Source: Chiloscyllium plagiosum
Lineage: Eukaryota
Length of the DNA stretch: 64,000 nucleotides
Assembly: GCF_004010195.1 (NCBI RefSeq)
Contig: NC_057734.1
Span: forward strand, 11,038,404-11,102,403
Direction of reading: 5' to 3'
The notes beneath the pieces were generated by a model that had not been told where the DNA came from, searched no databases, and was given only the letters and a program-made list of their open reading frames with translations. Shown in pieces: positions 60,901 to 63,247 of the stretch. How positions within the stretch are numbered: position 1 is the stretch's first letter; every line of letters begins with the position of its first letter. The position numbers and the translations under genes were made by a program.

Positions 60901-63247
60901 TGTTTGAAACCTGTTTGGCAGTTGCTTGCTACAAGTATTTATCTTTATCTAGCAGTGGGTGCACACTCCTTCTCTGAATGCATTGCCTTCTGATTTTATG
61001 AAGAGCTTCCTGAAGGAGTTGAGGTGAAGGAATTAAGTCTTTGTTTTTTTTTTGTATTGAATGATCAACTTGAGATTACCAGAAACTATCTTGTCTTCAT
61101 GCAGTCTGGAAAACATGTACAAGGAGCTTCAGTCTGACATTGAAGGCTTTGAGCCCCCAGGACATGGTGATCTGACTGGCTGGGCTAAGCAAGGTAATAT
61201 ACACACAAAACATTGGGTTCAGCTTCTTTATAGGGCGAGGGGAGACGAGTTGACAATTAATAGGTCTGGTAAGTCTGATCTCAAAGGTTAAAATTGGATC
61301 TTTTTGTTTTTTTAAACAGATATATCCGTGTCTAATTTTTAAATTCGTCAGTGTTATGGGGTTGTACAGCATGCAAACAGACCCATTGTTTCAACTTGTC
61401 CGTGCTGACCAGATATCCTAAATTAGTCTAACCCCATTTGACAGCATTTAGCCCATATCCTGCCAAACCCTTCCTATTCATATACCCATCAAGATGCCTT
61501 TTTAAATGTTGTAATCGTACCAGCCTCCACTACTTCCTCTGGCAGCTCATTCCGTACATGCACCACCCTCTGTGTGGAAAAAGTTGCCCCTCTAATTCAA
61601 ATGAGAGCTTTTGCCCGAAACGTCAATTTTCCTGCTCCTCGGATGCTGCCTGACCTGTGCTTTTCCAGCATCACTCTAACTGAGACTCTGGTTTCCAGCA
61701 TCTGCAGTCCTCACTTTTGCCTAGTTGATTTTAACCTTACTGCGAATCCTTTTGCAAGGATGCCTACCTTGAAGAAGTTCTCCTCTCCTCAAGAATCTGT
61801 GAGTCTCTCTCTCTCACTGCAACCCCCAGGTCATCTCCTGTGGTCAGTTGGCTGTACTCAGCTGTCTTTTTTTTTGTAGGAGCAGTGAATTGCTGCTGTA
61901 GTTATAAACTGGAGATTAGTTTATTTCACAATTTATTTTTAGTAGCTTTGAGAGAGATTAGAGGCAAGTGTTTAACCAAGCCTGGAGCTGCTAATTCCTT
62001 TTGATAACCTTAGAAGCAGACTGACTAAAAAGTGAAAGTTGTTTAGTTACAGGTGATTTCAGTAGTTTGTCATGTGACTGGGACTTCACATTGAGACACT
62101 CTGTTAACATGTTAGATTGACCTCCTTGTTAGAAACCATTGTGTTTCATAGCAGATTACTGTGGAATCCATTTGTACCAAATAAGCCCATTGATACACAT
62201 AATGTCTCCTTTGTTCCGAAATGGGTGAGGTAGACATCTTGGTTGAAACTTTATTGCTGGAACAGCACAGCAGGTCAGGCAGCATCCAGGGAGATTCGAC
62301 GTTTCGGGCACAGGCCCTTCTTCAGGAATGAGCAGAGAGTGTTCAGCAGGAGAAGAACTTCTCCTGCTGAACACTCTCTGCTCATTCCTGAAGAAGGGCC
62401 TGTGCCCGAAACGTCGAATCTCCTGTTCCCTGGATGCTGCCTGACCTGCTGTGCTGTTCCAGCAATAAAGTTTCAACTTTGATCTCCAGCATCTGCAGAT
62501 CTCACTTTCTCGAGGTAGACATCTTGTCTAGTCTTTTGTATTAGTTTGGCTGGAATGTTCTTGTCATGCAAGCAATATAATATCCATGAAGAGAGGAGTT
62601 CACTTGCCCTGGTAGTTGCTGGAAATTTCTGAAAGCTGTCATCTTGCTTATTCTGTATCCCATAGCCGTTTTTAAAATCTGGCAAAAATTCAATTTTAAT
62701 AAAAGACAATTTAAGATCTCGTGTTCTCTGGGCACTATAACTGCAAATATAACCTATAATTCAGGTGCCTGGTGGTAGTGTCATCAGAAACTGAATCAAA
62801 TTGCACTTTAGTTCATTTTAAACTTGGCTGTTATATGATTACTTTTTTCATTCAATTTGTGGATGTTCCTTTTCGGGATCTAGAAAATGAAAAACCAGGC
62901 TTGCCAATAGAAGTGGAGGGGATGGGGGAGAATGCTGCCTGACCTGTGCTTTTCCAGCACCACTCTAATCTAGATGGGGAAGAATTAGTCAGCACATGCC
63001 AGGGCAGTTTAGCAGTTTGCATACCAGACTAACCAAATTTTTCTGAATTTGTTTGGCGATTGAAACAGGAGTGTTGCTGCTGAATGCAGTCCTCACTGTG
63101 CGAGCGCATAACGCAAACTCTCACAAGGAGCGAGGCTGGGAAGATTTCACCGATGCAGTTGTGTCTTGTCTGAATGACAAGCTGGATGGTTTGGTGTTCA
63201 TGCTGTGGGGAGCGTACGCACAGCGCAAAGGCAGTGTAATCAACAGG
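51818..63247 (+). CDS. UNG: Uracil-DNA glycosylase, 3'-partial: UNG2 join(51818-51931,52767-52997,56869-56964,59624-59721,61105-61193,63069-63247...); UNG1 starts at 52686
   Basis: PIP box [14 protein letters not shown] motif [31 protein letters not shown] catalytic motif, PPPPS loop, GVLLLN, FMLWG. The final exon (HPSPLS motif) is not in the window. Confidence 0.96.
52535..52675 (+). promoter_or_regulatory. UNG1 (PB) promoter in a CpG-rich island
   Basis: E2F TTGGCGGGAAA 52539-52549, GC boxes 52581-52590 and 52642-52650, CCAAT 52594-52598, directly upstream of the exon 1B ATG. Confidence 0.72.
52686..52997 (+). CDS. UNG: UNG exon 1B (mitochondrial UNG1 presequence plus common part; internal UNG2 acceptor at 52767)
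   Basis: [24 protein letters not shown] is Arg/Ser/Leu-rich with no acidic residues; gaccag|GAA in phase 0; [11 protein letters not shown]...EFSKPYFIK|gttg. Confidence 0.92.
53300..53597 (+). mobile_element. HE1 V-SINE
   Basis: tRNA-like head GGTGGCTCAGTGGTTA, V-domain, HER1-like tail GGGAATCTAATC. Confidence 0.85.
53598..53870 (-). mobile_element. HE1 V-SINE, tail-to-tail with the preceding copy
   Basis: Reverse complement of the HE1 head (B box GGTTCGATTCC) and V-domain. Confidence 0.85.
54711..56769 (-). mobile_element. HE1 SINE (tail 54711-54835, head about 56605-56769) split by a Penelope insertion
   Basis: The two halves join into a contiguous HE1 sequence when the Penelope copy is removed. 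Confidence 0.8.
54836..56580 (-). mobile_element. Penelope-like retroelement (RT N-terminal region, GIY-YIG, pseudo-LTR; central N gap)
   Basis: [18 protein letters not shown] (Penelope RT), PLVLTFHP linker, [12 protein letters not shown]...PVVQHFN. Confidence 0.88.
56869..56964 (+). CDS. UNG: UNG exon 2
   Basis: tttgcag|[35 protein letters not shown]; |gtaagt. Confidence 0.95.
58290..59421. mobile_element. Decayed Penelope element with inverted pseudo-LTRs
   Basis: GIY-YIG remnants on the minus strand, inverted 3' region on +; 12-bp TSD TGTGGTTTATTG at 58278-58289 and 59422-59433. Confidence 0.8.
59624..59721 (+). CDS. UNG: UNG exon 3 (catalytic GQDPYH)
   Basis: tctag|[37 protein letters not shown]|gtatg. 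Confidence 0.97.
60058..60328 (-). mobile_element. Penelope 3' region/pseudo-LTR with hammerhead (same family as 5745-6335)
   Basis: Near-identical to the reverse complement of 6156-6335. Confidence 0.82.
61105..61193 (+). CDS. UNG: UNG exon 4
   Basis: atgcag|[31 protein letters not shown]|gtaat. Confidence 0.96.
61362..61592 (-). mobile_element. CR1/HER1 3' tail, followed by a + strand pseudo-LTR fragment (about 61600-61850)
   Basis: Matches other CR1 tails and pseudo-LTR copies in the window. Confidence 0.75.
62242..62511. mobile_element. Young fold-back Penelope pseudo-LTR mini-element with two intact antiparallel hammerheads
   Basis: Palindrome centred at AGAAG-AA-CTTCT (about 62356); 15-bp TSD GAGGTAGACATCTTG at 62227-62241 and 62512-62526; HHR at 62294-62329 (-) and 62384-62419 (+). 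Confidence 0.92.
62384..62419 (+). ncRNA. Minimal type I hammerhead ribozyme motif (mirror copy 62294-62329 on -)
   Basis: ATTC-CTGAAGA-A-GGGC(CTGT)GCCC-GAAAC-GTC-GAAT; predicted cleavage after C62415. Confidence 0.82.
63069..63247 (+). CDS. UNG: UNG exon 5
   Basis: aaacag|[33 protein letters not shown]...[20 protein letters not shown]|gtaag. Confidence 0.96.

What the first reader, a model, noticed from the sequence alone, without database searches (positions are those of the whole stretch)
62227..62526. Non-coding fold-back mini-retroelement carrying two antiparallel hammerhead ribozymes (best example, UNG intron)
Seen: a 270-bp insert between perfect 15-bp TSDs. It consists of a roughly 115-bp near-perfect palindrome with a 2-nt loop plus a 34-nt unpaired terminus on one arm. 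Each arm has an intact ATTC-CTGAAGA-helix II-GAAAC-GTC-GAAT motif, so a hammerhead is encoded on both strands, and there is no credible protein-coding ORF. Established: Penelope-like elements carry minimal hammerheads in their pseudo-LTRs and often have inverted pseudo-LTRs. Inference: these are either a self-propagating non-autonomous ribozyme-hairpin family or the minimal product of fold-back cDNA synthesis. In either transcript the ribozyme would be masked by its own antisense arm, making it a self-neutralising insertion tolerated in introns.
Basis: partly seen in the sequence, partly recalled or inferred. Interest (0 to 1): 0.8.

Follow-up and report, generated by a model that had tools for sequence, protein, structure and literature searches.

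The report
Twin-primed Penelope retroelement hairpin stub
This small hairpin in a gene's intron is a real, recent, one-off stub left by a Penelope-like jumping gene, one of thousands in this genome, and its many sister copies suggest that the mirror-image shape arises when both cut DNA ends start copying the same RNA at two fixed points.

Summary
Observation confirmed: a 270-bp insert in a UNG intron, a true 15-bp target duplication (a paralogous empty site has one copy), 114 paired bases with a 6-nt bulge, a 34-nt tail and a minimal hammerhead motif on each arm. It is the end module (pLTR plus tail) of a young RT + GIY-YIG Penelope-like element, 120/120 identical to an ORF-linked copy. Its apex and deletion each occur once in the genome, so this copy did not spread; 2,239 shorter hairpins of the same subfamily exist. 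Literal cDNA fold-back fits poorly: arms end at two fixed sites, and each arm often holds sequence the other lacks. Twin priming at two RT start sites fits best (about 0.7). Most templates begin at the first base of the hammerhead's helix I, not at its cut site. A sister hairpin lineage did spread (192 shared apexes, 299 shared junctions), so masking does not stop re-copying. 'Self-neutralising' is unsupported. The scan has already reported this stub class at least eight times elsewhere in this genome. The anatomy is published; I did not find the mechanism in the papers searched.

The parts
62227..62241 (+). Target-site duplication, left copy (15 bp)
   Evidence: Exact repeat; single copy at the paralogous empty site L156
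62242..62356 (-). Inverted, tail-less pLTR arm (q120 to q0, where q1 = 62358); inferred to be cDNA primed from the top-strand 3' end
   Evidence: outer end at the q118-123 site shared by 40 of 117 sampled arms
62292..62293 (.). Private 6-nt deletion junction in the left arm, between short TCC repeats (position ambiguous by 3 nt)
   Evidence: junction 23-mer occurs once in the genome
62294..62329 (-). Minimal type I hammerhead motif on the minus strand (helix I 4 bp, helix II 4 bp, palindromic ACGT in place of helix III)
   Evidence: Descriptor scan
62356..62357 (.). Hairpin apex: one templated and one extra A
   Evidence: apex 26-mer occurs once in the genome
62358..62477 (+). Direct pLTR arm (q1-q120)
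   Evidence: 120/120 identical to the 3' pLTR behind the RT + GIY-YIG ORF of L108
62382..62388 (+). Initiator-like TCATTCC; A62384 (q27) is the commonest 5' end of sister copies and the first base of helix I; inferred RNA start of the family (this copy reads past it)
   Evidence: 66 of 117 arms start at q24-33, mode q27; initiator consensus is recalled, not from a call
62384..62419 (+). Minimal type I hammerhead motif on the plus strand; predicted cut after C62415; bulged A62395 before helix II
   Evidence: architecture as described in PMC4209133
62478..62511 (+). 34-nt tail: the stretch between the two inferred RT start sites
   Evidence: tail defined in PMC8557442 and PMC11167929
62512..62526 (+). 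Target-site duplication, right copy
61194..63068 (+). Host intron of a uracil-DNA glycosylase (UNG-like) gene
   Evidence: Splice joint GT..AG in contigs of runs X15 and X16; weak UDG hit on the next exon

Best explanation
A one-off, very young, minimal insertion of an endonuclease-positive Penelope-like element (probably Neptune type), made by twin priming. Inferred steps: (1) the GIY-YIG domain nicks both strands about 15 nt apart; (2) one 3' end primes reverse transcription at the tailed start (q154-157) and the other at the tail-less start (q120-121), most likely on one uncleaved RNA, the second RT displacing the first cDNA; (3) both cDNAs stop at the RNA's 5' end, usually q27 just before the hammerhead core, here q0/q1 on a read-through or broken RNA; (4) host end-joining links the two cDNA ends through 0-3 nt of microhomology or filler, giving a head-to-head repeat with a tail on one arm. 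Shown: anatomy, parent element, private apex, distribution of ends and TSD lengths. Inferred: the priming order, one RNA rather than two, the start site, the repair path. The hammerheads are passengers of the pLTR, masked in transcripts of either strand, with no sign of function at this locus.
For: Parent: right arm 120/120 identical to the pLTR behind an RT + GIY-YIG frame in L108. Two fixed ends: 99 of 117 arms from 78 loci of contig C1 end at q118-123 (40) or q152-165 (59); 8 single arms end at q118-121 with their own TSD, so the tail-less end is a start site in its own right. Of 28 pairs not copied from a master, 28 have one tailed end and 22 have the other end at q119-122. Neither arm can be a copy of the other in 7 TSD-flanked pairs where the tail-less arm reaches 12-70 nt further 5' (L048, L057, L072, L073, L075, L081, L083), nor in L118, whose short inverted arm carries a tail absent from the 716-nt long copy, nor in L086, where both arms start at q27 and are bridged by 135 nt of foreign DNA. 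Pair TSDs are longer and tighter than single-arm TSDs (median 15, n = 25, against 12, n = 17; Mann-Whitney p = 4e-5) and overlap the arm ends by 2 or more nt at 26 of 50 ends, as expected if both 3' ends served as primers. One source for both arms: a minority A-to-G variant at q35 sits on both arms in 3 of the 50 hairpins listed and never on one arm alone (read by eye). In vitro, a Poseidon protein cleaves and extends both strands and starts at two sites that delimit the tail (PMC11167929).
Against: No biochemistry on this family. The focal copy alone cannot discriminate: its arms stop at nearly the same base (q0/q1), as do several long hairpins (L129 -52/-49, L130 -7/-4, L153 87/87), which fold-back would also give. 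In 10 of 31 pairs the tailed arm reaches further 5'. Asymmetric centres can arise by later deletion in palindromes (recalled). Six of 28 pairs have the shorter arm ending away from q119-122; 3 of 28 had no TSD by my search; 38 of 55 unpaired arms were left out of the TSD comparison (no TSD of 8 or more found, or start outside q20-35). The TSD search slides over a window, which can inflate overlaps; the focal copy itself shows no overlap at either end. RNA reads showed no pile of starts at q27 (a single-cell poly(A) library, about 2% read, poorly suited). The sample is the first 18 Mb of one contig.
Confidence: 0.7

Rival explanations
1. cDNA fold-back: one cDNA primed at the tail folds on itself and is copied back, stopping near q120; later deletions at the centre make the arms unequal.
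For: Near-symmetric apexes at arbitrary positions, including this copy; variants shared by both arms; recurrent apexes at short self-complementary words such as TTC/GAA.
Against: The copy-back would have to stop at the very base that single arms use as an independent start (8 TSD-flanked single arms); tail-less arm longer at the 5' side in 18 of 31 pairs; L118 and L086 cannot be made this way; pair TSDs are full length, unlike end-joined single-arm TSDs.
Confidence: 0.13
2. Two separate RNA molecules, one per subunit of a dimer, each primed on one strand (a variant of twin priming).
For: Explains the overlap of the arms without strand displacement; the Poseidon protein is predicted to be a dimer (PMC11167929).
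Against: Both-arm sharing of a minority variant in 3 of 3 cases and matched 5' ends at arbitrary positions, though one dominant source locus per cell could give the first.
Confidence: 0.1
3. Self-priming on an antisense template, as proposed for rotifer Penelope elements.
For: Proposed in PMC3846280 from palindromes at inverted junctions; such palindromic junctions occur here.
Against: Does not predict two fixed 3' ends shared with single arms, nor the pile of 5' ends at q27; in vitro initiation was mapped with an RNA template spanning the pLTR-ORF junction, at the two ends of the tail (PMC11167929).
Confidence: 0.04
4. The 270-bp hairpin is itself a self-propagating non-autonomous family (retrozyme- or SINE-like).
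For: Sister hairpins were re-copied: one asymmetric apex at 192 places and one arm-to-spacer junction at 299 places.
Against: This copy's apex and deletion are each unique in 3.56 Gb; no head-to-tail tandem; the closest look-alikes all have different apexes.
Confidence: 0.02
5. Assembly artefact.
For: Palindromes are hard to assemble; no read or contig listed spans the whole insert.
Against: True TSD shown by a paralogous empty site; arms differ by a private deletion; a contig of an independent run matches 61883-62265 with no difference, entering the insert by 24 nt (below the tool's 31-letter bar); the same tail/tail-less anatomy recurs at many loci.
Confidence: 0.01

Closest known systems
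Insertion units of canonical endonuclease-positive Penelope-like elements: pLTR, adjacent inverted 5'-truncated copy, 30-40-bp tail on one end (PMC8557442; Pen2a_Av in PMC3846280; D. virilis Penelope in PMC2377424; passages read)
   Same: Head-to-head pLTR arms, 34-nt tail on one arm, TSD, parent with RT then C-terminal GIY-YIG
   Different: Reduced to the end module alone (270 bp); TSD about 15 bp against 8-10 bp in the rotifer examples; thousands of copies
Minimal hammerheads of metazoan PLE pLTRs (PMC4209133; parts 1-2 of 4 read)
   Same: 4-bp helix I, bulged base before helix II, G-C closing pair, palindromic ACGT in place of helix III; that paper already notes dual motifs 100-700 bp apart on opposite strands
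   Different: Helix II is 4 bp here against 7-8 bp in Schistosoma; cleavage not tested here
PAc, Poseidon of Anolis carolinensis (PMC11167929; main text read, supplements searched)
   Same: Two RT start sites delimiting the tail; both strands cut and extended; uncleaved RNA is the template
   Different: That paper does not link these to inverted repeats; here 1-4 nt of target-to-RNA match is common at arm ends, and the parent has a CxxxxCxxC linker
Twin priming of L1 (Ostertag and Kazazian 2001; seen only as a reference line in PMC3649969, content recalled)
   Same: Both target ends prime on the RNA and give a 5' inversion inside one TSD
   Different: In L1 the second site is variable and the two segments barely overlap; here the second site is mostly fixed and the segments overlap almost fully
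Non-LTR retrozymes (bioRxiv 10.64898/2026.07.22.740005; part 1 of 5 and passages read)
   Same: Non-coding, type I hammerhead, pLTR-derived
   Different: Retrozymes are head-to-tail tandems; this is a single head-to-head pair

Membership tests
EN+ Penelope-like element insertion | pLTR belongs to an element with RT followed by GIY-YIG | tested here: met
   L108 frame: RVT_1 E 5e-8 (above cut-off), GIY-YIG E 3e-4 (just below cut-off); stop at q-128; pLTR 120/120 identical to the focal arm
EN+ Penelope-like element insertion | Hammerhead motif in the pLTR | tested here: met
   0 hits in 30 shuffles
EN+ Penelope-like element insertion | 30-40-nt tail on one end only | tested here: met
   34 nt; two end classes in 99 of 117 arms
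EN+ Penelope-like element insertion | Adjacent inverted 5'-truncated copy and TSD | tested here: met
Neptune clade | [quoted passage not shown] | tested here: met
   CNRRRCNTC between RT and GIY-YIG in L105 and L108; shared by Neptune and Nematis per PMC8557442
Neptune clade | RT phylogeny groups with named Neptune elements | not tested
   No named reference sequences were in hand; no tree built
Minimal hammerhead ribozyme | Conserved core, bulged base between 9 and 10.1, G10.1-C11.1, palindromic 15.2-16.2 | tested here: met
   against the description in PMC4209133
Minimal hammerhead ribozyme | Self-cleavage (as dimer or protein-assisted) | not testable with these tools
   Only 2 of 117 arms start at q58-60, one with a TSD (L154), so cleaved RNA is rarely the template; this says nothing on cleavage itself
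Non-LTR retrozyme | At least two head-to-tail units each with a hammerhead | tested here: not met
   Head-to-head pair
Non-LTR retrozyme | Circular RNA intermediate | not testable with these tools
   No suitable RNA data
Independent non-autonomous hairpin family (this copy) | Same apex and private changes at many loci | tested here: not met
   1 place each; met instead by the L039/L050 lineage
MITE or Foldback DNA transposon | Terminal inverted repeats at both ends and constant ends across copies | tested here: not met
   One end is an unpaired tail; centres vary; sequence is a retroelement pLTR

The most novel reading that the evidence does not exclude
The thousands of young stubs record the unsolved step of Penelope transposition: one protein complex primes both target ends on a single uncleaved RNA at two fixed sites, so the classic 'inverted pLTR plus tail' is a twin-priming product. 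The usual RNA is capped at the first base of hammerhead helix I, so unit-length mRNA can yield only 95-130-nt stubs and full copies need read-through transcripts. The RT also reads through hairpin masters with arms of about 180 bp, which founded a non-coding lineage of about 300 copies carrying host DNA.
Probability: 0.55. Interest if true: 0.62.

Novelty: new member of a known kind. Interest (0 to 1): 0.38.

Why it matters
The copy itself is ordinary: one of thousands of dead stubs, with an anatomy in print since the first Penelope papers. Its value is as a sample of a young, high-copy family whose junctions discriminate between models for how Penelope-like elements make inverted repeats with a tail, a step that PMC8557442 calls still undefined. 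The twin-priming reading joins the two in vitro facts of PMC11167929 (both strands extended, two start sites) to genome anatomy and gives simple bench tests. It would also explain why hammerhead-headed 95-130-nt pieces flood such genomes, and warns repeat annotators against filing them as SINEs or MITEs.

Tried and rejected
Rfam gathering scan: 0 hits, minimal hammerheads are below its models. PDB sequence search with the parent ORF: 0 hits. Run search: no RNA holder listed. Empty site in related species: not established; a contig of organism C begins to match exactly at 62512 with 6 unseen letters before it, but no contig bridges the site, and two other contigs that start there are explained by the paralog L156. 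RNA read starts at q27 or q59: none listed, library unsuited. Splice acceptor as cause of the q27 boundary (as in D. virilis, PMC4209133): rejected, no AG at q25-26 and single arms join target DNA directly, not a common exon. Hammerhead cut as cause of 5' ends: rejected, 2 of 117 at q58-60; six arms at q55-60 looked enriched, but four lack a TSD or continue with mutations. Downstream promoter element: the RGACGTGY of PMC2377424 matches 5 of 8 letters at q52-59 and is not counted. Shared-variant test in my 31 pairs was uninformative (one shared variant, in a master-derived copy). Recurrent short apexes (gaps of 5 and 8 nt) were first read as shared junctions, then assigned to recurring microhomology because they occur in both tail orientations. 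Literature: searches for Penelope with twin priming or twin-priming, and for recent work on inverted repeats and tails, listed no paper that proposes this model; the library lacks most subscription papers, including early Penelope reviews, so this is not proof of absence. One .gbk supplement of PMC11167929 and the preprint's supplements could not be read.
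Full report
Coordinates: q1 = window 62358, the first base of the right arm; q27 = 62384; predicted hammerhead cut after q58 = C62415.

1. Observation. The insert (62242-62511) lies between exact 15-bp repeats. 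The left arm is the exact reverse complement of q0-q120 except for a 6-nt deletion; the right arm runs on for 34 nt. The fold is far beyond chance (z = -30.7). A minimal-hammerhead descriptor hits both arms and two other window sites, with 0 hits in 30 shuffles; Rfam gives nothing. The target is part of an old repeat, and a paralog about 1.5 kb downstream shows left flank, one copy of the 15-mer and right flank in one run, so the duplication arose on insertion. Contigs of two other organisms splice 61191 to 63067 with GT..AG, so the insert is intronic. The exons read like uracil-DNA glycosylase (recalled motifs), with one weak Pfam hit in three exons tested.

2. What it is. Eight genomic copies listed are 100% identical over the whole 154-nt arm. 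In L108 an 893-codon stop-to-stop frame with RVT_1 and GIY-YIG hits ends 128 nt upstream of a pLTR identical to the focal arm at 120 of 120 bases; the same GIY-YIG region abuts a sister pLTR inside the window at 17400-18009. A CxxxxCxxC motif between RT and endonuclease points to the Neptune/Nematis type (PMC8557442 passage); I built no tree. Exact 28-mers give the subfamily's size: q93-120, 18,829 places; q36-63, 14,602 (it holds three CpGs); q10-37, 5,328. Hairpins with up to 30 nt between the helix II motifs occur at 2,239 places. The focal apex and the deletion junction each occur once.

3. Sister copies. I fetched loci of contig C1 up to about 18 Mb that held either motif exactly: 60 from the list and the 18 extra ones. 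Keeping arms of at least 95% identity gave 117 arms: 31 head-to-head pairs and 55 unpaired arms. 3' ends: 40 at q118-123, 59 at q152-165, 18 elsewhere. 5' ends: 66 at q24-33 (mode q27), 19 at q34-57, 2 at q58-60, 11 beyond q60, 19 before q24. Three pairs are copies of hairpin masters (section 5). Of the other 28, all have one tailed arm, 22 have the other arm ending at q119-122, and 25 have a TSD of 12-17 bp. Apexes are short overlaps or fillers, some patched from nearby element sequence (L069, L072, L081, L083). The focal copy is in the minority whose arms pass q27. Loose-end consensuses in runs of three organisms also dissolve just before (C)ATTCC for older subfamilies.

4. Mechanism. Best reading: twin priming (0.7). 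Both ends are start sites, since 8 single arms end at q118-121 with their own TSD, and in vitro a Poseidon protein extends both strands and starts at two sites that delimit the tail (PMC11167929, main text read). In 7 TSD-flanked pairs the tail-less arm reaches 12-70 nt further 5' while the other arm alone has the tail, so neither is a copy of the other. L118 has a short inverted arm with a tail that its long copy lacks (best match 16 of 25). In L086 both arms start at q27 and 135 nt of other DNA bridge them. Pair TSDs (median 15, n = 25) are longer and tighter than single-arm TSDs (median 12, n = 17; p = 4e-5), and 26 of 50 pair ends overlap the arm by 2 or more nt; 38 of 55 unpaired arms were not in that comparison, and the sliding TSD search may inflate overlaps. 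One RNA rather than two is favoured by an A-to-G variant at q35 on both arms in 3 of 50 listed hairpins and never on one (by eye) and by matched 5' ends at arbitrary places. Against: those same two facts also fit fold-back, the focal copy is nearly symmetric and shows no priming overlap, and the tailed arm is longer in 10 of 31 pairs. The q27 boundary is the A of TCATTCC, which fits the initiator consensus (recalled); D. virilis Penelope has an internal promoter with an initiator (PMC2377424 passages). It is not the hammerhead cut site and not a splice acceptor. RNA reads did not show it (unsuitable library), so the start site is inferred (about 0.6).

5. A hairpin lineage that did spread. L039 and L050 share an asymmetric apex, found letter for letter at 192 places. 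The junction of its inverted arm (ending at q131) with a non-coding spacer occurs at 299 places, with at least four apex types among the 8 fetched loci that show this junction. L039, L118 and L124 are complete insertions of 3,009, 857 and 1,650 bp with 14-bp TSDs, sharing spacer at 100% over 241-967 nt. Capture of host DNA between pLTRs in trans is described in PMC3846280 (passages). My look-ups found no earlier scan note on this lineage.

6. Ribozyme. Helix II is predicted in a single arm (0.93-0.99) and helix I weakly (0.02-0.11 in arm context, about 0.5 in the 38-nt core); both fall to 0.000 in the full insert on either strand. Masking is thus predicted, but a monomeric minimal hammerhead showed no detectable cleavage and dimers little (PMC4209133), the PAc ribozyme needed protein and was dispensable for insertion, and unmasked arms are common. 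Nothing shows selection for masking; I did not test intron enrichment.

7. Novelty. The anatomy is in print (PMC8557442, PMC3846280, PMC2377424), as are paired opposite-strand minimal hammerheads (PMC4209133). The scan noted this stub class at least eight times in this genome, including the 5' boundary and arms built anew, and twin-priming geometry for Penelope-type inserts in two other genomes; my reading was recorded before those look-ups. Published explanations I saw are antisense self-priming or 'undefined'; my searches listed no paper with the twin-priming model, within an open-licence library. Verdict: new member of a known kind, interest 0.38; the mechanistic reading would deserve about 0.6 if confirmed.

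Noticed in passing
L039:942-3950, L050/L109, L118, L122-L126, L128 (G000:C1): Non-coding lineage carrying a pLTR hairpin plus at least 1.2 kb of shared spacer; 299 copies of one arm-to-spacer junction, 192 of one apex, at least four apex types; master locus not located.
   Followed up: partly
L117-L122 apex: One apex type holds a 37-nt piece of the RT-coding region between the arms and recurs in 6 of 6 loci fetched for that spacing.
   Followed up: partly
L005, L007, L016, L029, L080: Short head-to-tail units in which the 5' region after the tail jumps back to q13 of the pLTR at a recurrent junction; a retrozyme-like tandem derivative of the same subfamily.
   Followed up: no
L086:838-972: 135 nt of foreign DNA between two arms that both start at q27; a 97% copy of its first 62 nt lies about 730 nt away in the same locus.
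   Followed up: partly
L126:2506-2806: Tandem array of about 11 copies of a 27-nt piece of the tail (q130-157).
   Followed up: no
window 6527-6773, 21260-21446, 29968-30146, 48844-49002: Four older head-to-head pairs of related subfamilies (78-84% to the focal arm); the pair at 6527-6773 shares several variants on both arms.
   Followed up: no
window 17400-18009: Young copy of the same subfamily with the GIY-YIG region fused to the pLTR at q16 by an internal deletion; intact, unmasked hammerhead motif; tail-less end.
   Followed up: partly
window 25547-25577 (+) and 50841-50869 (-): Hammerhead-like cores of two more distant families with different helix II sequences.
   Followed up: no
window 62170-62600 and L156: The target lies in an old dispersed repeat with a 93% paralog just past the window's end, likely a local duplication within the same gene.
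   Followed up: partly
L003: A close look-alike hairpin sits about 200 nt behind what reads like a BTB-domain exon (by eye, not tested).
   Followed up: no
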